Below, piece by piece: positions 4,131 through 64,000 of a DNA stretch of 64,000 nt. The translations under genes and the position numbers were made by a program. Source of the stretch: Flavobacteriales bacterium (GTDB lineage Bacteria; Bacteroidota; Bacteroidia; DT-38); assembly GCA_013214975.1 (NCBI GenBank), contig JABSPR010000020.1, positions 1,300 through 65,299 of the forward strand, read 5' to 3'. The notes under the pieces are model-generated. The model ran no database searches. It was not told the origin of the DNA and was given only the letters and a program-made list of their open reading frames with translations. The number at the start of each line of letters is the position of its first letter. The stretch's first letter is position 1.

Positions 4131-6104
<1,974 letters not shown>

Positions 6105-6980: not shown

Positions 6981-8339
6981 TTATTGATTACTCATAATTC
7001 TTACAGATCCTGGTACGTCTACTTGTACGCCATCTTCGCTAACAGCAGTTAATCGCCATAAGAAAGTGTTGTTGTGAGACGATAGGTTCTCTAATCCTGT
7101 TAATCCATCCCAGCTTTCGTCTGGATTGATTGTGGACCAGATTAACTTACCTGACGTATCGTGGATTTCTAATTTGTAATCTCTCACATTACTATTAGAT
7201 AAATCTGGTTTAAAAGAGTCTAAAAAGCCATCACTATTTGGGCTAAATTGTCTAATAGCCGACACTATAAAGCCTTCTTGAATGTTTATTTTATACACCA
7301 TCTCGCTCGAGCAGAGGTAATCATTAGTAGCTTTTAGAGTTACTGGGTATTCATCCTCCACTTCAAACAAGTTTTTAGGATTTTCTAAAGTTGAAGTGTT
7401 GCCATCCGCAAAGTCCCATGAATATTCTGTAGCTCCACCAGTAGTTAAGTTTTTAAACTGAATGCTGGAGTTGCTACTATTGCTTTCGAAAGTGAAACGT
7501 ACTTGAGGTGTTGGGAATACATCAACGTTTTGCACGATTGCCGGACATGCTTTACGGTTATTAGGCATAATGATTAATGTTACCTTGCTATTACCACTTT
7601 GGTTAAACACGTGAGTAGGAGATGCATTGTTGTATGAATTTCCATCGCTAAATTTCCATAGGAATCTAGCTTCCGTATCATCTATGTTGATGTGGTAAGT
7701 TTTCTTCTCACCCTGACATAAATTTGTGTCCTCTAAATGTAGATCACAGATGTTTTTGTCGGCATTTACCGCATCTATAGCTACAGCAGGTGTGATGTTA
7801 GGTGATCTTTCAGGGCTAGGACTATTTGCAATCGCATCAGATTGTGTTTCGGTTGCAAGTGCTTTTTCTTCTTGAGAAATATAATTTGTTGAAGGAGTAT
7901 TTACATCACTTAAAGAAGCGGTTTCTTTAGCTTCAGATTTATCCGAATCTGACGATATAGGTGTTTTGTTTGCTTTTAATAATTTTTCGGTACTAACTTC
8001 TTTGTATTGCGTAGCAACTGCAGCCGCGTGGCCCGAGTTCTTTTCGGGTTTCGCAGATTCGTTATTAGTAATAACTTCCTTAGCAACAATTGAATCCGTT
8101 TTAATGCTTGTCTCATCTGAAGATGACGAAAACATAATTGCACCAACAATTACTGCTGCACCTGCAATTGTGCTGATGTACTTAATCGTGTTGTTCCCTT
8201 TTTCAGGAGTGTCTTGAGCGTTTTTATCTAACGACTGTTCTACTCTGTCCCAAACTCCTTCATCATATGGAACTTCGATATTATCAAGGCCATCCTTAAT
8301 AAATTTATCGAAAGAATCGTATGTGTTTCTACTATCCAT
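6981..8339 (-). CDS. ECF-sigma partner (putative anti-sigma-like) single-pass membrane protein with two PKD-like domains and a T9SS type-B (gliding-motility-type) C-terminal domain
   Basis: Its start overlaps the stop of the upstream ECF sigma gene by 8 nt. The ~52-aa cytoplasmic N-terminus carries the VPYDEGVWDRVEQSLDK pattern typical of Bacteroidota ECF partner proteins, followed by one TM helix (ISTIAGAAVIVGAIMF). A ~130-aa Ser/Thr/Glu/Lys-rich linker leads to two PKD-like repeats (WKFSDGNS..., YSWDFADGNTS...). The C-terminus FSPNSDGFLDSF ... KLIWST ... WDG ... GSVRI resembles the T9SS type-B CTD. Confidence 0.6.
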   Translation of the reverse strand: MDSRNTYDSFDKFIKDGLDNIEVPYDEGVWDRVEQSLDKNAQDTPEKGNNTIKYISTIAGAAVIVGAIMFSSSSDETSIKTDSIVAKEVITNNESAKPEKNSGHAAAVATQYKEVSTEKLLKANKTPISSDSDKSEAKETASLSDVNTPSTNYISQEEKALATETQSDAIANSPSPERSPNITPAVAIDAVNADKNICDLHLEDTNLCQGEKKTYHINIDDTEARFLWKFSDGNSYNNASPTHVFNQSGNSKVTLIIMPNNRKACPAIVQNVDVFPTPQVRFTFESNSSNSSIQFKNLTTGGATEYSWDFADGNTSTLENPKNLFEVEDEYPVTLKATNDYLCSSEMVYKINIQEGFIVSAIRQFSPNSDGFLDSFKPDLSNSNVRDYKLEIHDTSGKLIWSTINPDESWDGLTGLENLSSHNNTFLWRLTAVSEDGVQVDVPGSVRIMSNQ

Positions 8340-8916
8340 TACTTTTTACTGCTAACTTTTCAAGGAAAACTTTCCTTAAATTAATTTTTGCTTTAGATAA
8401 ATTAGATTTCGATGCGTTAACACTTATTCCTAATTGATCTGCTATTTCTTTATGCGAATACTCTTCTAATACGAACATATTGAAAACAGTTCGGTATGCC
8501 GGCGATAAATTTTGTATTTCAGCCATTACTTCCTGCATGTTAAACTGATTGAACATGCTAGTATCATCCTGTTCATTCCAGCTTTCTAAGTCCAGAATAT
8601 CTGCTTCGTAATCCAGACTTTTAGATTTTATTTTGTTCTTACGGAAAAAGTCCACAGTTGTGTTCACTATTATTCTTCTTACCCAACCTTCAAAGGAGCC
8701 TTTGAAATTATATTTATGGACACTATCAAAAACTTTCAGAAAGCCATCATGTAAAATGTCTTTGGCTTCATCCTGGTCTTTCGAATATCTTAAGCAAACT
8801 CCCATCATCTTCTGGTAGTATAAAGTGTATATCTTTTTCTGGCAAACTCGATCTCCTGCGGCACATCCATTAATAGTGGATATAAGTTCTTTTTTCGCAT
8901 TTTGATCAATTCCCAT
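8332..8916 (-). CDS. RNA polymerase ECF-type sigma-70 factor
   Basis: The sigma-70 region 2 (ILHDGFLKVFDSVHKYNFKGSFEGWVRRI) and region 4 (YRTVFNMFVLEEYSHKEIADQLGISVNASKSNLSKA) signatures are present. Length is 194 aa. Confidence 0.85.
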   Translation of the reverse strand: MGIDQNAKKELISTINGCAAGDRVCQKKIYTLYYQKMMGVCLRYSKDQDEAKDILHDGFLKVFDSVHKYNFKGSFEGWVRRIIVNTTVDFFRKNKIKSKSLDYEADILDLESWNEQDDTSMFNQFNMQEVMAEIQNLSPAYRTVFNMFVLEEYSHKEIADQLGISVNASKSNLSKAKINLRKVFLEKLAVKSNG

Positions 8917-9219
8917 TTTGTGTTACAGATATAAGTCGTTCAATATGTCAAATGGTTGCCTTGTAATGTTAGTTATTTTTCATTGTAAAAATACACCTGC
9001 ATTTTTAATTACATAAATAAAGACGGAAATAGTTGTACGAGGTTGCCTGTTGATACATGAATACTTCGTTTGTTTTTAATAAGGCCGTGTAACTATCCAT
9101 GTAGTAGAGGTTTGTGTTGAAGGGGTCTGATTATATAACTCTTGTTATAATTTGAACGTATGATCTTCTTTATATACTTTAGCCCTCCTTAAAATATTAA
9201 TGAATAATTTATTTTTTTT

Positions 9220-10328: not shown

Positions 10329-10943
10329 TTATGGTATTTTGTCATTGTCAGGATCTGCATCACATGCAGTTCCTGAAAGCGTACTACATAATATAAGTGC
10401 CACTGTTTGTTCACCTCGCTTATTGGTGATTTCCTTTAAAGCAATTCCCGAAATGTTTTCGTACTCATATATGTGATCTACATATAATTTTAATTTGTTT
10501 TCATCTAATTCTGAAATTGTGCTATCGTAAAATACCCAATTGTAAACATTGGTATAAAGAGACAAGCTTGCATCTTTCATTACCAGCCAATTTGTGTCGG
10601 CATTAAATTCTAAAATTTCCGTGGGAACAGTGGCTGTACCATAAAAGAAAAAATCGTTACGGCTCAAGTCTTCAAACATTACCTTACCAGTGTAGTCTGT
10701 TGTTAAAAATTCATGGTAATTATCATCTAACCCACCTGGATACTCCGTTTTTCCACACGCCATTCTCACATAAGCACTATCAACAAGATTCGATGCATCA
10801 ACCGTACCTTGATATACAGCAACTAATAACTTAGCCTTGCCGTCGTCACACTTTTTACATGCAGGAAGGATTACAATAGCTATAAGTCCAGCTAGTAATG
10901 CCCATTTGATTCCCCATTTAGTTGGATTTGCTTTCACGTTCAT
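10329..10943 (-). CDS. hypothetical lipoprotein
   Basis: Signal peptide with a lipobox-like LPAC motif (ALLAGLIAIVILPACKKC). No recognisable catalytic motif. Confidence 0.4.
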   Translation of the reverse strand: MNVKANPTKWGIKWALLAGLIAIVILPACKKCDDGKAKLLVAVYQGTVDASNLVDSAYVRMACGKTEYPGGLDDNYHEFLTTDYTGKVMFEDLSRNDFFFYGTATVPTEILEFNADTNWLVMKDASLSLYTNVYNWVFYDSTISELDENKLKLYVDHIYEYENISGIALKEITNKRGEQTVALILCSTLSGTACDADPDNDKIP

Positions 10944-17943: not shown

Positions 17944-19956
17944 ATGATGAGCAAACATCTTATGAAATTTGTAAAACTTATATTTACAGCACTAGTGGTT
18001 GTATTGGTTTCAGTGAATTCATACTCACAAAGAAACTTTTCAAAAGAGGCGGATGAGGCATATAAAGCGTCGTCATATTCAGAAGCAATTGACCTATATA
18101 AAGTTGCATTTTCTAAAGCCAAGAAAAACAGAGTAGAAAAAGCTCGTATTATTTATCAGGTAGCTAATTGCTATCGGATGAAAAACGAGTACAAACAAGC
18201 TGAACTTTGGTTTCAAAAAGCCATTAATGCTAGGCATTTAGATCCTTATGCAAAATTGTATTTGGCTGATGCTAAAAAATACAATGGTAAGTACGAAGAA
18301 GCTCTTGTATGGTATCAGAAATTCGTTAAGAATTTACCCAATAGTCAAGACGGTAAAAATGGTATAGAGTCTTGTCAATTAGCAATGGAATGGATAGATA
18401 CTCCATCAAACTATAATGTGGAAATAAGTAATGCATTTAATACTAAGTTTGATGACTTTTCGCCTGTTTATGCTAAGAAGGATTATAAAGTAGTATACTT
18501 TACTTCTGCAAGACCAAGTGCTGCAGGGCAAACAACTGATGGTTGGACAGGGCAGAGCTTTACGGATGTCCTTCAAGCCAATCAGGATAGAAAAGGTAAA
18601 TGGGCAGAACCTGTTGTAATTGAAGGTGGAGTTAATTCGCCGTACAATGAGGGAGCAGTTGCATTTAATAAAAGATTTAGCAGCATTTATTTTACAAGAT
18701 GTATAATTGATAAAGGAGCAGACATGGGGTGTCAAATTTATACTGCTGATAGAGAGGGTAAAAGTTGGGGAGCATCTTCAGAGATTAAACTTGCACATGA
18801 TTCAATTAGAGTTGGACATCCATCAATGGCGCCAGACGATGTTACCTTATATTTCTCGGGTAATATGCCAGGAACACTTGGAGGGAAGGATATTTGGAAG
18901 TCTGTATATAACCCTAGTTCAAAAACTTGGTCGAAAGCAGAAAACTTAGGACCTACTATTAATACGAAAGGAGACGAAATGTATCCGTATATTAGAAGTA
19001 ATGGAGATTTGTATTTTGCTTCGAATGGACATATTGGAATGGGTGGGTTAGATATCTTTCATTCTAAAGCAAAAGGCGGTGGATTCGGTGAGCCTGAAAA
19101 TATGCAGTTTCCTATCAATTCATCTACCGATGATTTTGGAATTACGTTTCAAGGACGGAGAGAAGCAGGTATGTTTACATCTAATAGGCCTGGCGGAAGA
19201 GGCAAGGATGATATCTACGAATTTACAGTACCGCCTTTAGTTATTGTATTGGATGGTTATGTAAGAGATATGGAAACAAAAGAGATTATTCCTTACGCAA
19301 TTGTTGAACTTCGAGGTTCTGATGGGTCTATATTAATAGATACAACAGGAGCTGATGCTTATTACAAATTTCCTCTATCAGAAGAAACGAGTTATGATAT
19401 TGAAGGTAGAAAGAAAGGTTTCTTATCAGATTTTGCTCACGTAACGTCTGTAGGGGTGACAGTGTCATCAACACTTAAATCGGATAAAGATTTGTCCTTG
19501 ATAAACATTGTAAAGCCAATCAACCTTCCAAACATCGAGTATGCATATGCTAAATGGGCATTACTAGATAAGTCTACAGAAGCATTGTTGGATTTGGTGA
19601 AAACATTAGTTGACCATCCGAATATTACAATTGAGTTAAGAGCACACACAGATTTTAGGGGATCGGCTACTAATAATAAAGTACTATCTCAAAAAAGAGC
19701 AAAAAGCGTTGTTGACTTCTTGAAAGAAAAGGGGATTTCTGCAGACAGATTAACGCCTAAAGGGTATGGCGAAAGCTCGCCTCGTAGAGTTTCTGAGTTC
19801 ATGTCTAAGTCATGTTCCTTTGAAGCTGGTGATCTTTTAACAGAAAAGTTATTAGGGCCAAGAACAATGAAAGGTGATCCTAAATGGGAAGAAGGAATGC
19901 AGTTAAATAGACGAACTGAATTCTTTATCTTAAGAACAGATTACGTTCCTAAATAA
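17944..19956 (+). CDS. OmpA-family protein with N-terminal TPR, PD40/TolB-like beta-propeller repeats and C-terminal OmpA peptidoglycan-binding domain
   Basis: Signal peptide, TPR-like helices, PD40-like repeats (SPxxSxDGxxLYF pattern) and a C-terminal OmpA domain (ELRAHTDFRGSATNNKVLSQKRAKSVVDFLKEKGISADRL...GYGES). It is paralogous in architecture to 61174..63258. Confidence 0.7.
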   Translation: MMSKHLMKFVKLIFTALVVVLVSVNSYSQRNFSKEADEAYKASSYSEAIDLYKVAFSKAKKNRVEKARIIYQVANCYRMKNEYKQAELWFQKAINARHLDPYAKLYLADAKKYNGKYEEALVWYQKFVKNLPNSQDGKNGIESCQLAMEWIDTPSNYNVEISNAFNTKFDDFSPVYAKKDYKVVYFTSARPSAAGQTTDGWTGQSFTDVLQANQDRKGKWAEPVVIEGGVNSPYNEGAVAFNKRFSSIYFTRCIIDKGADMGCQIYTADREGKSWGASSEIKLAHDSIRVGHPSMAPDDVTLYFSGNMPGTLGGKDIWKSVYNPSSKTWSKAENLGPTINTKGDEMYPYIRSNGDLYFASNGHIGMGGLDIFHSKAKGGGFGEPENMQFPINSSTDDFGITFQGRREAGMFTSNRPGGRGKDDIYEFTVPPLVIVLDGYVRDMETKEIIPYAIVELRGSDGSILIDTTGADAYYKFPLSEETSYDIEGRKKGFLSDFAHVTSVGVTVSSTLKSDKDLSLINIVKPINLPNIEYAYAKWALLDKSTEALLDLVKTLVDHPNITIELRAHTDFRGSATNNKVLSQKRAKSVVDFLKEKGISADRLTPKGYGESSPRRVSEFMSKSCSFEAGDLLTEKLLGPRTMKGDPKWEEGMQLNRRTEFFILRTDYVPK

Positions 19957-56434: not shown

Positions 56435-57373
56435 ATGAGACTATTCCGCAAACTGTTGTTTTTAGTTTTACTCTTAGGATGTTCAGGGATTTCTTTCGCG
56501 CAAGACAAGGTATTTACCCAGAGTTATAGCGCACCAATATATTTAAACCCAGCATTTACTGGTTATACAGATGAGGTCAGAATTGTATCCAATTACAGAA
56601 ATGCTTGGCCAGCCCTTAACGGGCAATTTATAACGCACAATGTTTCGTACGATCAATATATAAATAAACTGGGTGGAGTGGGGCTTAATATGATGCGAGA
56701 TAAAGAAGGTGATGCGTTAAAGACTTATTCGGTGTCGATTAACTATTCTCCAATGTTTAGGCTTTTTAAAGAGAAATTGTCAATTAGTCCTGCGATAGAG
56801 CTAGGATGGAGAAGAAAAACCTTAGACTGGTCGAAACTTGTTTTTGGAAATCAAATTGATGATCGGTTTGGGTTTGCTCATCAGCAATCCACGGAGCTTA
56901 TGGAACCTCAATCAGATGTTCTAGATATTAATTCGGGAATATTAATTAGTCATGGAGGGTTCGTTTATGGAATTGCGGTGCATCATTTAACAACACCGGA
57001 TGAGGGACTAGGGAGTGTTTCGTTACTGCCTAGAAAATATACGGGTCATATACTTTACTCTCTTGAATTCGAAAATGAATTCCGATTTTCTCCGTCTGTA
57101 ATATTTCAACGACAAGGAGATTTTCAAATGATGACACTTGGTATTATGAGTGGATTTAAGGATGTGAAATTTGGAATTGCATATCGTAATGGCGACAGCT
57201 TTATTGCGATGGCCGGTTATAGGCACAAAGCTTTTGCTTTGAATTATAGTTATGATGTAACAACGTCAAAACTTAATATTCAGAACTCCAATGGAAGTCA
57301 TGAGTTGAGCCTCACGGCTAAATTTGGCGGCAAAGACGAGAAGAGAAAGGGAGTAGACTTTGTGAGCTTTTAA
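56435..57373 (+). CDS. type IX secretion system membrane protein, PorP/SprF family
   Basis: Signal peptide followed by the family N-terminal pattern (AQDKVFTQSYSAPIYLNPAFTGY). Length is ~310 aa. Confidence 0.75.
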   Translation: MRLFRKLLFLVLLLGCSGISFAQDKVFTQSYSAPIYLNPAFTGYTDEVRIVSNYRNAWPALNGQFITHNVSYDQYINKLGGVGLNMMRDKEGDALKTYSVSINYSPMFRLFKEKLSISPAIELGWRRKTLDWSKLVFGNQIDDRFGFAHQQSTELMEPQSDVLDINSGILISHGGFVYGIAVHHLTTPDEGLGSVSLLPRKYTGHILYSLEFENEFRFSPSVIFQRQGDFQMMTLGIMSGFKDVKFGIAYRNGDSFIAMAGYRHKAFALNYSYDVTTSKLNIQNSNGSHELSLTAKFGGKDEKRKGVDFVSF

Positions 57374-61173: not shown

Positions 61174-63258
61174 TTAGTTTTTAGTTGGCATTTCTACATC
61201 CGACCACAGCTCTTCTTCTGTGAGGGTGTCAACAACTCGGAATTCACTACGCCGATTTAGTTTACGTCCTTCTGGGTTGTCTGTACCATCGGCGTTTGTG
61301 TTTAGTGCGATAGGGTTAGATTCCCCATAGCCTTGTGCCGTAATTCGGTCTTTGTTTATTCCTTTATTTGTGAGGTGTTTTACCACGCTTTCCGCTCGTT
61401 GTTGAGAGATTTTTATGTTTAATTCATTCGACCCCTTACTATCTGTATGAGACATAACTTCTAATACTAACTGAGGGTTTTCTTTCAGCATAACAAGCAA
61501 ACCACTATTTATACTCTGCTTAACCGCTTCCGATAGATTTGTCTTTCCAAATTCAAAGTGTATGCTCTCTAATGCAATAGGGTCTTTTGGAATTACCTTC
61601 ATGATTATTTCTGCAAGCACCGTATCCGATTTGAGTAATTCCAAAGTGGAAATTTCAGTAAACGAGTTGAAGTATCCATCTTTCTTTGCCTCTAGAATAT
61701 ATTTTTGTTTTGGTTTTAGATAGAGCGTAAATGATCCATTTATGATTTTAGTTTTTTCTAGTAAACTCTTCTCTCCGTTTTCATCTACTATGTATAAGTC
61801 AAGTTCACTATCCCCATCTACTAATTGCCCTATTCCATCTCCTTCATTTAGTAGTTTTCCAAGAATCACACGATCAACAAATTTCAATGCGGTTATTTCG
61901 TAGAGATCGTCGCAGCATGTCTCGTTATAGAGGGATTGACCACCTTTTCTGTTCGAAACGATATATCCATTCCTATCGTTAGGATTAAGTATGAAATCCA
62001 AGTCGTCTGCCCTGGAGTTGGCGGGGATACCAATGTTAGTAGCAGGTACCCATCTGCTTTTTTCACCAACTGTAGAAAAAACATCCAAACCACCAAAGTT
62101 TGGACGACCGTTAGAACTGAAATATAATGTTCGCGTGTCTTCGTCGAAATATGGTGTCATTTCTGTTCCTCCCGTATTGATTTTACTACCTGCGTTTTTG
62201 GGGTTTCGATAGTGTTTTTTCTTGGGGTGATACTCGGTATACCAAATATCTGTTCGGCCCTTTCCTCCCGGACGGTCGGAGACGAAATAGATTAACTCAT
62301 GCCCCTTTTTCGAATCTCTTGCAACGGTAGGATGGGAGGTGGAAAATCCTTTTAGATTTATTTGATCGTTAAATGCAATAGGCGTGGACCAACCTGTATC
62401 TGTAATAGAAGTGTAATATAGTTTGCAGATATTTTTAAACTGTCGGTTCTCATTACATTGCGTGAAATAGAATTTGGTACTGTCGAACGAGAATGTTCCA
62501 TTGGCAACTTCTGTGGAGTCGGAGTTGAAAGGGCCTTCCCATTCCCCATCAAATACCCATCTGTTTTCCTCGTTTTTATGAGCCTTGTATAATTTCCTCG
62601 TAGGGAGGTTTATTGTATCCAGTTGGTCTTTATTGTAATATTTCGGACTGTCTTCTTTCAAAGAACCATATACCAATATTCGATTAGATAAAGGTATTGG
62701 CGAAAAATCGATGTGTGGGTTATTGATCGTTGGAGGAAGATGCCTGATGTCGTATTTTATAGAAGTATCGGGGAAGTTTAAAGCCATTTCACAACCTAGC
62801 AGCTCGGCTTTTCCTAGCTTTTTTAGGGATAGGTCTTTTGCTAGTTTGGCCAGCTTTTTAAATTTAAATAATGTTACTTGGGCTTCTTCGTATTTTCCGT
62901 TTGATTTTTGCATTGTGCCTAAATAAAATACGGTTTCCGGATGCTTCTCCAATACTTTGTCTTTTACCAATAAGTATTCCTGTTCTGCTCTAATGTAGTT
63001 CTTTGTGTGTCTGTATAATTCGGCTAATTCAAAATGATACTTTGATTCGGCAGGCTTTAATTCTACGAGTTTTTCGTAGTATGCTAAGGCAATGAGTATA
63101 CTTCCTTCTCTCTTGGCTTGATTGGCCAGTTTAACCAAACGTGAAGATTTTTCTTCTAAGACTTTAAAATTATCGGTTTGACCGTATCCGTTTAAAATGG
63201 ATAAGATTAATAATGTGGATATAATTATTACTCTAGCTATCATTAGAATCGGGTACAC
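61174..63258 (-). CDS. OmpA-family protein with TPR, PD40-like repeats and C-terminal OmpA domain (paralog of 17944..19956)
   Basis: Signal peptide, TPR helices, PD40-like repeats and an OmpA domain (LEVMSHTDSKGSNELNIKISQQRAESVVKHL...GYGES). Sits immediately downstream of a PorP/SprF gene with a 16-nt overlap. Confidence 0.7.
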   Translation of the reverse strand: MYPILMIARVIIISTLLILSILNGYGQTDNFKVLEEKSSRLVKLANQAKREGSILIALAYYEKLVELKPAESKYHFELAELYRHTKNYIRAEQEYLLVKDKVLEKHPETVFYLGTMQKSNGKYEEAQVTLFKFKKLAKLAKDLSLKKLGKAELLGCEMALNFPDTSIKYDIRHLPPTINNPHIDFSPIPLSNRILVYGSLKEDSPKYYNKDQLDTINLPTRKLYKAHKNEENRWVFDGEWEGPFNSDSTEVANGTFSFDSTKFYFTQCNENRQFKNICKLYYTSITDTGWSTPIAFNDQINLKGFSTSHPTVARDSKKGHELIYFVSDRPGGKGRTDIWYTEYHPKKKHYRNPKNAGSKINTGGTEMTPYFDEDTRTLYFSSNGRPNFGGLDVFSTVGEKSRWVPATNIGIPANSRADDLDFILNPNDRNGYIVSNRKGGQSLYNETCCDDLYEITALKFVDRVILGKLLNEGDGIGQLVDGDSELDLYIVDENGEKSLLEKTKIINGSFTLYLKPKQKYILEAKKDGYFNSFTEISTLELLKSDTVLAEIIMKVIPKDPIALESIHFEFGKTNLSEAVKQSINSGLLVMLKENPQLVLEVMSHTDSKGSNELNIKISQQRAESVVKHLTNKGINKDRITAQGYGESNPIALNTNADGTDNPEGRKLNRRSEFRVVDTLTEEELWSDVEMPTKN

Positions 63259-64000
63259 GGTAAAACAACAATTTCATTTTTCGTGCTCGGTGAAGTAAAG
63301 ATTAAAGAAAATTCTATCGCTCCTTTTCTAGAGTCTACACCACTTAAGTCGGAAATATTGTAGTCGTAACTTAATCCGAAATCGAAATTTCCATAAGTAA
63401 CACCAAAAACAGGTACGAAAGAATCAAGGTTTCTACTTACACCATGTCTGTAGTATAAACCTGTATACACCCAAGGTATAAATTGAAGTAATGATCGGAA
63501 CATTACATTACCTCCAAGGATTATTTCATTGGCTCCAGCTGTCCATGCAACCAGTATTTTTGGTTCAAGTCGTAGGGTAGACGTTATGTCGTATTGAACA
63601 AAAGTATGTAGTACCTTTTTTGTTCTGAGTTTTTCAGTGAAAGATTGGAAATGCGTGTCTTTTGGTCGGTTAAAATGATTCAAAGCAAACCCGCTTTCTA
63701 TATTAAATCGGTTGTATTCTCTCTTCCAGACGAGTCCAGTATTCATATCGAAATAAGAAGATGAATTGTTTAGTCCTGTTTCATTATTAGGTAGTCCTGT
63801 ATCAAAAGCATCAGGATAATAAACCCATTGATTAGGAAACGTAAAATCATCGAAACTTGCTTTCCTGAAAACGGGGCCGAATTGGAGGCCAAGACGAAAT
63901 ATATTTCCTCTGAACTCTGTGGAGTACGAGCTTGAGAATAATATTTTATTTCCTGAGATGTTTAAATCTGCGTATTTGTCTTGCGTTACTATAAAACCTA
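63243..64000 (-). CDS. type IX secretion system membrane protein PorP/SprF family (5'-partial, runs off window end)
   Basis: The C-terminal beta-barrel portion is similar in pattern to 56435..57373. The reading frame remains open to the window end. Confidence 0.65.
   Translation of the reverse strand, partial: GFIVTQDKYADLNISGNKILFSSSYSTEFRGNIFRLGLQFGPVFRKASFDDFTFPNQWVYYPDAFDTGLPNNETGLNNSSSYFDMNTGLVWKREYNRFNIESGFALNHFNRPKDTHFQSFTEKLRTKKVLHTFVQYDITSTLRLEPKILVAWTAGANEIILGGNVMFRSLLQFIPWVYTGLYYRHGVSRNLDSFVPVFGVTYGNFDFGLSYDYNISDLSGVDSRKGAIEFSLIFTSPSTKNEIVVLPCTRF

What the first reader, a model, noticed from the sequence alone, without database searches (positions are those of the whole stretch)
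6981..8916. ECF sigma factor paired with a membrane-anchored partner that carries PKD domains and a T9SS type-B sorting domain
The ECF sigma gene (8332..8916) overlaps its downstream partner (6981..8339) by 8 nt, the usual sigma/anti-sigma arrangement. The partner has the short cytoplasmic N-terminus common to Bacteroidota ECF partners (VPYDEGVWDRVEQSLDK) and a single TM helix. Its extracytoplasmic part is not a FecR or zinc-finger sensor. It is a long disordered S/T/E/K linker, two PKD-like repeats and a C-terminal domain matching the T9SS type-B (gliding-motility-associated) CTD: FSPNSDGFLDSF ... WDG ... GSVRI. CTD cargo normally has a cleavable Sec signal and is exported by the T9SS. Here the same sorting signal sits on an inner-membrane-tethered regulatory partner. 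This suggests a signalling route in which engagement or proteolysis of the CTD by the T9SS, or a block in secretion, controls ECF sigma activity. I am not aware of this route being described.
Basis: partly seen in the sequence, partly recalled or inferred. Interest (0 to 1): 0.6.

Follow-up and report, generated by a model that had tools for sequence, protein, structure and literature searches.

The report
ECF sigma partner carrying T9SS sorting domain
A stress-type sigma factor gene is paired with a membrane-anchored partner whose outer end is a type IX secretion "type B" sorting domain, and related genomes link the same sigma family to that domain's known docking protein (PorP/SprF) in three further ways, pointing to an undescribed regulatory link between this secretion branch and gene expression.

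Summary
8332..8916(-) encodes an ECF sigma. 6981..8339(-) overlaps it by 8 nt and encodes: a ~44-aa acidic N-module, a TM helix, a 120-aa disordered linker, two PKD domains and a C-terminal type-B T9SS CTD (Pfam CHU_C 31.2 bits, cutoff 27; TIGR04131 28.6, below its cutoff of 35).

It is not a one-off. In 80 reference-genome loci with a related sigma, 78 have a downstream gene with the same N-module and TM helix, and 63 of 80 partners end in a type-B CTD.

Independent links to the type-B branch:
- Four partners instead end in a PorP/SprF barrel, the known docking partner of type-B CTDs, followed by a small type-B-CTD lipoprotein.
- Eight short partners are followed by a PorP/SprF gene carrying the sigma's own promoter (GGCAACC-N16-CGTCT).
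- About 24 CTD-type loci have a large type-B cargo gene adjacent.

The N-module marks ECF partners generally (580 clusters), often fused to outer-membrane beta-barrels.

Most likely this is an envelope-spanning anti-sigma that reports on the type-B CTD/PorP-SprF branch. Sigma binding, CTD docking and signal direction are inferred, not shown. I found no description in the literature; the closest concept is PorA-CTD/PorXY/SigP. I rate it a new variant of a known kind.

The parts
8332..8916 (-). ECF (group 4) sigma-70 factor, 194 aa
   Evidence: Sigma70_r2 + Sigma70_r4_2; TIGR02937 87.8 bits (cutoff 42.9). More than 3500 homologues at E<=1e-20, about 50-59% identical, in Flavobacteriales-type lineages.
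6981..8339 (-). Partner gene (452 aa + stop), putative single-pass anti-sigma factor; overlaps the sigma stop codon by 8 nt
   Evidence: A gene with the same N-module and TM helix lies downstream of the sigma in 78 of 80 related loci. 77 of 78 junctions fall within -32..+16 nt and 48 overlap.
8208..8339 (-). N-module (aa 1-44): acidic, two predicted helices, motif F-x2-I-K-x2-L-x3-E-V-P-Y-D/N-x3-W-x2-V/M-E-x2-L-D; presumed cytoplasmic sigma-binding part
   Evidence: W30 is invariant and E22 is >=90% conserved across 47 partners. Helices 6-19 and 27-41 at low pLDDT. No Pfam or PDB relative. 580 representative clusters carry it.
8124..8189 (-). Transmembrane signal anchor (aa 51-72)
   Evidence: Kyte-Doolittle peak at aa 52-70. 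Family-wide, the uncharged stretch has a median of 24 aa, with K/R just before and D/E just after, and no conserved small-x-small site. AF2 helix 51-70.
7755..8123 (-). Disordered S/T/E/K-rich linker (aa 73-195)
   Evidence: pLDDT about 30. Family linkers are 79-120 aa (median 93) and 80% STPEKQNDGA.
7500..7754 (-). PKD-like domain 1 (aa ~196-280)
   Evidence: PKD_4 first stretch and PKD_6 at aa 204-254. AF2 beta-sandwich with pLDDT >90.
7275..7499 (-). PKD domain 2 (aa ~281-355)
   Evidence: PKD_4 at aa 289-344 and PKD at 288-341. pLDDT >90.
6984..7274 (-). T9SS type-B C-terminal domain (aa 356-452)
   Evidence: CHU_C 31.2 bits (GA 27); TIGR04131 28.6 bits (<35). Cargo-derived HMM 48.5 bits. 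hhalign 99.8%. AF2 four-stranded core with pLDDT 76-96.
9016..9049 (-). Distal ECF-type promoter copy: CAGGCAACC-N15-CGTCTTTATT
   Evidence: 25.7 bits with a PWM built from 40 orthologous upstream sites.
8929..8962 (-). Proximal ECF-type promoter copy at the position conserved in relatives (-10 element CGAC instead of CGTC), about 17 nt upstream of the sigma ATG
   Evidence: 21.7 bits. These two copies are the only sites >=12 bits in the 64-kb window, against 0.75 expected per shuffled window.

Best explanation
The two genes form an autoregulated ECF sigma/anti-sigma-type operon. The partner is an inner-membrane protein with its N-terminus in the cytoplasm. Its ~44-aa N-module would hold the sigma factor. 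Its 120-aa flexible linker and two PKD domains reach across the periplasm. [quoted passage not shown] Sigma activity would thereby be coupled to the state of that branch (shuttle availability or occupancy, or secretion competence). Release of the sigma would probably occur by proteolysis of an undocked or engaged partner. The sigma then transcribes its own operon and, elsewhere in the genome, type-B components such as PorP/SprF shuttles or type-B adhesin cargo.

Shown here: the architecture, its conservation, the promoter, and the comparative links to PorP/SprF and type-B cargo.

Inferred: sigma binding by the N-module, the CTD-PorP/SprF contact, proteolytic release, and the direction of the signal.
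For: 1. Architecture and topology.

2. Conserved operon. 78 of 80 related loci have an N-module + TM gene downstream of the sigma, and 77 of 78 junctions lie within -32..+16 nt. The synteny secDF-mdh | sigma-partner | gyrB shows vertical inheritance.

3. The CTD is real and conserved. 47 of 77 partners pass CHU_C and TIGR04131 at E<1e-3. 63 of 80 match a cargo-derived HMM at the extreme C-terminus. hhalign gives 99.8%.

4. Domain swap. Four partners of closely related sigmas carry PorP/SprF (62-90 bits) in place of PKD-CTD. Each is followed within 0-4 nt by a ~211-aa lipoprotein with a type-B CTD at 60-75 bits. [quoted passage not shown]

5. Promoter. GGCAACC-N15/16-CGTCT lies upstream of the sigma genes, exact in 43 of 70, with two copies in the window. 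At >=17 bits there are 86 hits on the sigma strand and 0 on the opposite strand in 770 kb. All 8 short-partner loci carry a 24-29-bit copy in front of a full-length PorP/SprF gene (211-223 bits). Copies also precede SprB-repeat or CHU_C cargo genes in L079, L086, L061, L070, L084/85, and in a six-locus sub-clade.

6. About 24 CTD-type loci have a large type-B cargo gene adjacent on the same strand.

7. The N-module is a general ECF-partner module. It occurs in 580 clusters. Among the 77 best hits of >=300 aa, 24 carry OMP_b-brl_2, 18 carry PKD+CHU_C and 2 carry PorP/SprF. Members of the barrel class and of the repeat-bearing CTD class are also sigma-adjacent. All these C-termini either sit in the outer membrane or bind an outer-membrane barrel.

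8. The genome has the type-B machinery. It encodes an orphan PorP/SprF at 56435..57373 and a PorP/SprF + PorE-like pair at 61174..64000.

9. Precedent. An engineered inner-membrane-tethered PorA is not exported, yet its CTD still signals in the periplasm to an ECF sigma pathway (PMC12152298).
Against: - No direct evidence that the N-module binds the sigma. It has no detectable similarity to any solved anti-sigma domain or Pfam family, its AF2 confidence is low, and the complex prediction could not be run.
- For the window protein itself the CTD hit is modest and falls below the NCBIfam cutoff.
- No PorP/SprF gene lies within 5 kb of any CTD-type pair.
- In the window no promoter copy precedes any gene other than the sigma, so the regulon in this organism is unknown.
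- Many CTD-type loci show no detectable promoter in front of the adjacent cargo gene.
- The PorP-fusion and short-partner classes sit in different genomic contexts and may be paralogous rather than orthologous systems.
- All characterised T9SS CTDs act on proteins released from the inner membrane. Whether a tethered type-B CTD can reach its shuttle is unknown.
Confidence: 0.55

Rival explanations
1. Secretion-checkpoint version, with logic like FlgM and sigma-28. The CTD makes the partner itself a T9SS substrate. When the type-B route is competent, the ectodomain is threaded or pulled through the translocon. The tether is cut, the remaining stub is degraded, and the sigma is released to switch on type-B cargo genes.
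For: The CTD retains all conserved motif blocks of secreted cargo. The linker of 79-120 disordered residues is long enough to span the periplasm. Predicted targets include large type-B adhesin genes.
Against: An engineered inner-membrane-tethered PorA was not transported to the surface (PMC12152298). The PorP/SprF-fused and beta-barrel-fused partners cannot be 'exported'. They fit a docking or tether model better than an export model. No cleavage site is conserved after the TM helix.
Confidence: 0.17
2. The partner is a genuine anti-sigma factor, but its CTD-like domain is only a co-opted periplasmic beta-sheet module (a sensor, or a domain for oligomerisation or peptidoglycan/ligand binding). 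It would have no interaction with the T9SS, and the T9SS-related neighbours would be coincidental in genomes rich in such genes.
For: The window protein's scores are marginal (31.2 bits; TIGR04131 below cutoff). These genomes carry many type-B CTD genes. No PorP/SprF gene is adjacent in CTD-type loci.
Against: Many family members score strongly (best CHU_C E = 3e-17) and always at the extreme C-terminus. The alternative partners are PorP/SprF fusions followed by a type-B CTD lipoprotein. The sigma's own promoter precedes PorP/SprF genes in 8 of 8 short-partner loci. Three independent links to the same binding pair are hard to attribute to coincidence.
Confidence: 0.15
3. The partner is an ordinary T9SS surface protein that is merely the first gene of the sigma's regulon. 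Its long N-terminal region would be an atypical extended signal peptide that is cleaved off, with no anti-sigma role.
For: All known T9SS cargo have cleavable signal peptides (PMC12618676). The N-module matches no known anti-sigma domain. Public annotation calls these proteins only 'gliding motility-associated CTD' or 'PKD domain' proteins.
Against: The N-module is conserved independently of the C-terminus across four architectures, all of them sigma-adjacent. It is acidic, 35-50 aa long, and sometimes repeated 2-7 times. The hydrophobic span is about 20-24 aa, flanked by K/R and D/E, with no conserved cleavage motif. By contrast, cargo and PorP/SprF proteins in the same loci have classical short signal peptides ending in ...AQ. 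No alternative start codon exists.
Confidence: 0.08

Closest known systems
PorA - PorY/PorX - SigP cascade of Porphyromonas gingivalis (PMC7712824, PMC12152298)
   Same: A T9SS C-terminal domain serves as a periplasmic signalling element that ultimately controls an ECF sigma factor regulating T9SS-related genes. An inner-membrane-tethered version of the CTD protein still signals.
   Different: PorA has a type-A CTD and a cleavable signal peptide. It is a free cargo protein that binds the sensor kinase PorY, and the signal passes through the response regulator PorX to SigP. Here the CTD is type B, is covalently part of the sigma's own membrane-anchored partner, and no two-component system lies in the locus.
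FecA-FecR-FecI type cell-surface signalling
   Same: An ECF sigma is controlled by a single-pass inner-membrane partner whose periplasmic end contacts an outer-membrane beta-barrel, and the sigma drives expression of that outer-membrane system.
   Different: There is no FecR/DUF4974 domain, no TonB-dependent transducer and no signalling extension. The presumed outer-membrane contact is a FadL-type PorP/SprF barrel reached through a secretion-signal domain.
Type-B CTD cargo / PorP-SprF shuttle pairs of the T9SS (PMC12618676, PMC9143113)
   Same: The same C-terminal domain family with all motif blocks aligned. Variant operons contain a PorP/SprF domain next to a type-B CTD protein.
   Different: Known cargo have cleavable Sec signal peptides and a porP/sprF gene directly downstream. 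This protein has a conserved cytoplasmic module plus a signal anchor, follows an ECF sigma gene, and has no adjacent porP/sprF gene.
FlgM / sigma-28 secretion checkpoint
   Same: An anti-sigma factor carries the recognition signal of a secretion machine, so the competence of that machine could set sigma activity.
   Different: FlgM is soluble and is exported whole through the flagellar type III system. This partner is membrane-tethered, and its export is unproven and perhaps impossible.
RseA / sigma-E envelope-stress pathway
   Same: A single-pass, N-in anti-sigma factor that is probably removed by regulated proteolysis in response to the state of outer-membrane biogenesis.
   Different: RseA senses free unfolded porin C-termini through DegS. 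Here the partner itself carries the outer-membrane-directed domain (CTD, PorP/SprF or beta-barrel). The N-module is unrelated in sequence to the RseA anti-sigma domain.

Membership tests
ECF (group 4) sigma-70 factors | Only sigma-2 and sigma-4 domains, small size, matches to ECF models | tested here: met
   194 aa. Sigma70_r2 53.5 bits, Sigma70_r4_2 55.1 bits, TIGR02937 87.8 bits (cutoff 42.9).
ECF (group 4) sigma-70 factors | Autoregulatory promoter with an AAC-type -35 element and a CGT-type -10 element | tested here: met
   GGCAACC-N15/16-CGTCT upstream of the sigma in relatives, with two copies in the window (25.7 and 21.7 bits).
ECF (group 4) sigma-70 factors | Assignment to a named ECF group (Casas-Pastor classification) or an NCBIfam equivalog | tested here: inconclusive
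   The best specific models fall below their cutoffs: TIGR02985 99 bits against 126.4, and sigma_PG0214 79.7 against 130. The supplementary group tables of the classification paper are not held.
Anti-sigma factors (class I/ZAS, class II CnrY-like, FecR-like) | Sequence or profile similarity to a known anti-sigma domain | tested here: not met
   An N-module profile against all PDB sequences gives a best E of 0.15, to unrelated proteins. No Pfam or NCBIfam family covers the N-terminus of any of 77 partners.
Anti-sigma factors (class I/ZAS, class II CnrY-like, FecR-like) | Gene immediately downstream of and co-transcribed with its ECF sigma, conserved across relatives | tested here: met
   78 of 80 loci, with 77 of 78 junctions within -32..+16 nt. 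This also holds for the beta-barrel and repeat-bearing classes.
Anti-sigma factors (class I/ZAS, class II CnrY-like, FecR-like) | Single-pass topology with the N-terminus in the cytoplasm | tested here: met
   This is a prediction only: the K/R-hydrophobic(~24 aa)-D/E pattern, AF2 helix 51-70, and no alternative start codon.
Anti-sigma factors (class I/ZAS, class II CnrY-like, FecR-like) | Physical binding and inhibition of the cognate sigma | not testable with these tools
This needs a multimer prediction or an experiment.
T9SS type-B CTD proteins (TIGR04131 / PF13585) | Model hit above the curated cutoff at the extreme C-terminus | tested here: inconclusive
   The Pfam CHU_C cutoff is met (31.2 against 27). 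The NCBIfam TIGR04131 cutoff is not met (28.6 against 35). Support at family level is strong.
T9SS type-B CTD proteins (TIGR04131 / PF13585) | The five conserved motif blocks in the last ~100 aa, with B, D and E on strands and A and C in loops | tested here: met
   All blocks align between the partner and cargo profiles. The AF2 strands at 385-393, 425-434 and 439-448 and the loops at 365-376 and 410-412 match the layout described in PMC12618676. The motif sequences themselves are not printed in that paper's text.
T9SS type-B CTD proteins (TIGR04131 / PF13585) | N-terminal cleavable Sec signal peptide | tested here: not met
   There is a 50-aa acidic conserved N-module before a ~21-aa anchor, with no alternative start and no conserved cleavage motif. 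No dedicated predictor (SignalP, DeepTMHMM) was available.
T9SS type-B CTD proteins (TIGR04131 / PF13585) | Cognate porP/sprF gene directly downstream | tested here: not met
   The downstream neighbour is an Lrp/AsnC regulator on the other strand. No PorP/SprF gene lies within 5 kb in any CTD-type locus. Orphan type-B cargo do exist in F. johnsoniae (PMC12618676), and an orphan PorP/SprF lies at 56435..57373.
T9SS type-B CTD proteins (TIGR04131 / PF13585) | T9SS- and shuttle-dependent secretion or surface anchorage | not testable with these tools
   This can only be tested experimentally.
FecIRA-type cell-surface signalling | FecR/DUF4974 periplasmic domain and a TonB-dependent transducer partner | tested here: not met
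   None of 77 partners has such a domain, and no such gene is present in the locus.
PorA-PorXY-SigP cascade | Type-A CTD ligand and a PorY/PorX two-component relay | tested here: not met
   The type-A model TIGR04183 gives E = 0.33. No kinase or response-regulator gene is adjacent.

The most novel reading that the evidence does not exclude
A family of envelope-spanning anti-sigma factors uses a secretion-system sorting domain (type-B CTD), its cognate shuttle barrel (PorP/SprF), or a plain outer-membrane beta-barrel as a built-in 'test substrate'. Successful docking or insertion of the partner's own C-terminus in the outer membrane would set the activity of a dedicated ECF sigma. In the type-B case, this would give Bacteroidota a direct feedback controller matching type-B adhesin and shuttle expression to T9SS capacity.
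Probability: 0.35. Interest if true: 0.85.

Novelty: new variant of a known kind. Interest (0 to 1): 0.72.

Why it matters
**Regulation of the type-B branch.** This branch of the T9SS secretes gliding and adhesion proteins such as SprB, and almost nothing is known about how it is regulated. Cargo and shuttle must be made in matched amounts (PMC12618676), but no sensor for this is known. This locus offers a concrete, testable candidate: a sigma factor whose own partner carries the cargo signal.

**Testability.** The system comes with a defined promoter motif, predicted targets, and cultured hosts (Cryomorpha, Brumimicrobium).

**ECF annotation.** The work defines an unmodelled but widespread ECF-partner N-module (580 clusters at 50% identity). 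Automatic annotation misses it entirely. It appears to tether anti-sigma factors physically to the outer membrane, and this design principle for ECF signalling has not been characterised.

Tried and rejected
- **Alternative start codons.** I looked for one that would create a normal signal peptide. None exists between M1 and the TM segment.
- **Full-length partner search.** Apart from one near-identical fragment and P0016, all hits came through the PKD domains. I therefore switched to sigma-anchored loci.
- **N-module profile against PDB and Pfam.** Nothing significant was found.
- **Word-indexed search with the N-module profile.** It returned only six short fragments and was superseded by the exhaustive HMMER search.
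- **ECF group assignment.** The supplementary tables of the classification paper are not held.
- **Fold searches.** The afdb50 library was unavailable. The PDB Foldseek search returned only generic tandem Ig-like adhesins, topped by Aureispira GhpA.
- **Further regulon members inside the window.** There are none at >=12 bits.
- **Orthology of the variant classes.** I considered treating the PorP-fusion and short-partner classes as strict orthologues. I rejected this because they lack the mdh synteny and form separate clades, and treat them as closely related systems instead.
Full report
**Observation**

The partner's ATG and the sigma's TAG share the string ATGGATAG, an 8-nt overlap. The sigma (194 aa) has Sigma70_r2 and Sigma70_r4_2 domains and passes the general ECF model TIGR02937 at 87.8 bits against a cutoff of 42.9.

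The partner (452 aa) has two PKD domains and a CHU_C domain at aa 363-432. CHU_C scores 31.2 bits against a Pfam gathering score of 27. The NCBIfam type-B model TIGR04131 scores 28.6 bits, below its cutoff of 35. On the single sequence, therefore, the CTD call is real but modest.

M1 is the only possible start codon upstream of the hydrophobic segment at aa 52-72, and the preceding 52 residues are acidic, with 6 K/R against 13 D/E. The AlphaFold2 model, built on a shallow alignment with mean pLDDT 69, shows the following:
- two short helices at aa 6-19 and 27-41, at low confidence;
- a 20-residue helix at aa 51-70;
- a disordered stretch at aa 71-195;
- two confident PKD sandwiches;
- a confident C-terminal domain whose core is a four-stranded sheet, as described for predicted type-B CTDs (PMC12618676).

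**Source and conservation**

The sigma is identical to a protein from a Flavobacteriales MAG. It has more than 3500 homologues at about 50-59% identity. The partner has almost no close relatives, so I anchored the comparison on the sigma.

A scan of one genome per species returned 80 loci from Cryomorphaceae, Crocinitomicaceae, Vicingaceae, Salibacteraceae and allied lineages. In 78 of them a gene follows the sigma, and 77 of the 78 junctions lie within -32 to +16 nt, with 48 overlapping. These genes begin with the motif F-E-x2-I-K-x2-L-x3-E-V-P-Y-N-x3-W-x2-M-E-x2-L-D followed by a hydrophobic segment.

Across the family the uncharged span has a median of 24 residues. It is almost always preceded directly by K/R and followed by D/E, and it has no conserved small-x-small cleavage motif. 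Cargo and PorP/SprF proteins in the same loci have short classical signal peptides. This supports an N-in signal anchor.

The locus is part of the core genome. The arrangement secDF-mdh | sigma-partner | gyrB recurs in distant relatives, and mdh lies upstream in 36 of 61 CTD-type loci.

**The CTD is conserved and homologous to cargo CTDs**
- Of 77 partners, 59 have PKD domains and 47 pass CHU_C and TIGR04131 at E<1e-3, with a best CHU_C E-value of 3e-17.
- An HMM made from seven ordinary type-B CTD proteins matches 63 of 80 partners at the extreme C-terminus.
- Partner and cargo CTD profiles align over 99 columns at 99.8% probability, with all motif blocks in register.
- The linker is 79-120 residues long and about 80% polar or small residues. 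That is long enough to cross the periplasm.

**Independent links to the type-B branch**

Type-B CTDs are known to bind cognate PorP/SprF outer-membrane barrels stoichiometrically and are not cleaved (PMC9143113, PMC12618676).

1. *PorP/SprF fusions.* In four loci the partner of a closely related sigma has the N-module (repeated) and a TM helix. It ends in a PorP/SprF domain (62-90 bits against a cutoff of 22.3) instead of PKD-CTD. In all four, the next gene, 0-4 nt away, encodes a ~211-aa lipoprotein with a strong type-B CTD at 60-75 bits. The anti-sigma-like module therefore sits on either half of the same binding pair.

2. *Shared promoter.* The sigma genes share an ECF-type promoter, (A)GGCAACC-N15/16-CGTCT, which is exact in 43 of 70 upstream regions.
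   - The window has two copies, at 9016..9049 (25.7 bits) and 8929..8962 (21.7 bits). No other site reaches 12 bits in the 64 kb.
   - In 770 kb of related loci, 86 sites reach 17 bits on the sigma strand and none do on the opposite strand.
   - All eight loci with a ~240-aa partner have a 24-29-bit copy in front of a full-length PorP/SprF gene at 211-223 bits.
   - Other copies precede SprB-repeat or CHU_C cargo genes (L079, L086, L061, L070, L084/85). A six-locus sub-clade has a variant -10 element, CATCATA, at 13.5-18.9 bits against a null 99th percentile of 7.5.

3. *Adjacent cargo genes.* About 24 CTD-type loci have a 750-1250-aa type-B cargo gene directly adjacent on the same strand.

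**The N-module is a general ECF-partner module**

It has no Pfam, NCBIfam or PDB relative. An exhaustive HMMER search found 580 representative clusters. Among the 77 best hits of at least 300 aa, 24 carry an outer-membrane beta-barrel (OMP_b-brl_2), 18 carry PKD+CHU_C and 2 carry PorP/SprF. Many have two to seven tandem N-modules.

A beta-barrel member (P0196) and a repeat-bearing CTD member (P0185) both lie directly downstream of ECF sigma genes. The recurring theme is a cytoplasmic module and an inner-membrane anchor joined to a domain that resides in, or binds to, the outer membrane.

**Mechanism**

The best-supported reading is an envelope-spanning anti-sigma factor. Its type-B CTD would dock on the type-B branch of the T9SS, most likely on a PorP/SprF shuttle, and so couple that branch's state to sigma activity. 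The sigma would drive itself and type-B components.

Sigma binding, the CTD-shuttle contact, proteolytic release and the sign of the response are inferences.

An export-coupled, FlgM-like version is possible but fits the barrel-fused partners less well. It also fits poorly with the finding that an inner-membrane-tethered PorA is not exported yet still signals (PMC12152298). The rival that this is ordinary cargo with a long signal peptide is disfavoured by the architecture-independent conservation of the N-module.

**Context in this genome**

The window encodes an orphan PorP/SprF at 56435..57373 (Pfam 161 bits). It is 35-41% identical to the promoter-driven PorP/SprF proteins of the short-partner clade. 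The window's other PorP/SprF is only 21-30% identical to them. That second copy is cut by the window end at 63243..64000 and is followed by a PorE-like TPR-WD40-OmpA gene at 61174..63258. The orphan is a candidate cognate shuttle, but no sigma-type promoter precedes it.

**Novelty**

Full-text searches found no description of an anti-sigma factor carrying a T9SS CTD or a PorP/SprF domain.

Public records name these proteins only for their C-terminal halves:
- the window's partner is NCBI NQY66357.1, 'gliding motility-associated C-terminal domain-containing protein';
- cultured relatives are 'PKD domain-containing protein';
- the fusions are 'PorP/SprF'.

ECF control of T9SS genes is already known, through SigP in P. 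gingivalis and the SM6 promoter class in F. psychrophilum (PMC4800418, PMC9723704). The idea that a CTD can act as a periplasmic signal for an ECF pathway was published for PorA (PMC12152298). What is new is the direct fusion, the type-B/PorP-SprF wiring, and the general N-module family. I therefore rate it a new variant of a known kind, of high interest to T9SS and ECF specialists.

Noticed in passing
window 56435..57373 (+): Orphan full-length PorP/SprF gene (Pfam 161 bits) between a GT2 glycosyltransferase and a DUF2279 lipoprotein. It is 35-41% identical to the sigma-promoter-driven PorP/SprF proteins of the short-partner clade, against 24% to the window's other PorP/SprF. It is a candidate cognate shuttle for the partner's CTD, but no sigma-type promoter lies upstream.
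   Followed up: partly
window 61174..64000 (-): A PorP/SprF gene cut off by the window end (63243..64000; Pfam profile positions 141-273) is followed by a 694-aa TPR + WD40(PD40) + OmpA protein with PorE-like architecture. This is the typical tail of a type-B cargo / shuttle / PorE operon, and the cargo gene would lie beyond the window.
   Followed up: partly
window 17944..19956 (+): A second 670-aa PD40 + OmpA protein with PorE-like architecture.
   Followed up: no
window 8332..8916 (-), sigma residues C18 and C41: Two cysteines in the sigma-2 region (G-C-x-K-G-D-R...M-G-V-C-x-R-Y) are invariant in 28 homologues at about 50% identity, and a third (C25) is common. This is unusual for ECF sigmas, and a redox or metal role is conceivable.
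   Followed up: no
P0196, P0185, P0217, P0280 and the partners in L009/L021/L035/L037: Many N-module proteins carry 2-7 tandem copies of the ~35-aa module before the TM helix. This suggests that one partner may hold several sigma molecules.
   Followed up: partly
Short (~240 aa) partners, e.g. L016:5539-6282 and P0172, P0174, P0176, P0182: Their periplasmic part contains a conserved motif L-R-F-G-D-Q-I-D-P-R-K-G-F-I-Y. It matches positions ~125-163 of my PorP/SprF HMM weakly (12-20 bits). Its meaning is unknown.
   Followed up: no
L079:7028-7480 and L086:16465-16872: Small ORFs of 136-151 aa with signal peptides and no Pfam match lie between a sigma-type promoter and giant SprB-repeat genes.
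   Followed up: no
L053 and L081, about position 5358: A promoter-like site (GAGGAAACC...CACGTCATA, 18.6-19.7 bits) lies inside the sigma coding region, about 195 nt upstream of the partner start. It could be an internal promoter for the partner.
   Followed up: no
L030, L031, L038, L040, L043, L047, L057, L059, L061, L070, L075, about 85 nt upstream of the main promoter: A second conserved site, GAGGCATCC-N-GCGTCT (17-22 bits), occurs in one sub-clade. It lies at the start of an N-terminally extended sigma reading frame of about 224 aa.
   Followed up: no
window 10329..10943 (-): A 204-aa predicted lipoprotein with no Pfam match lies between mdh and secDF.
   Followed up: no
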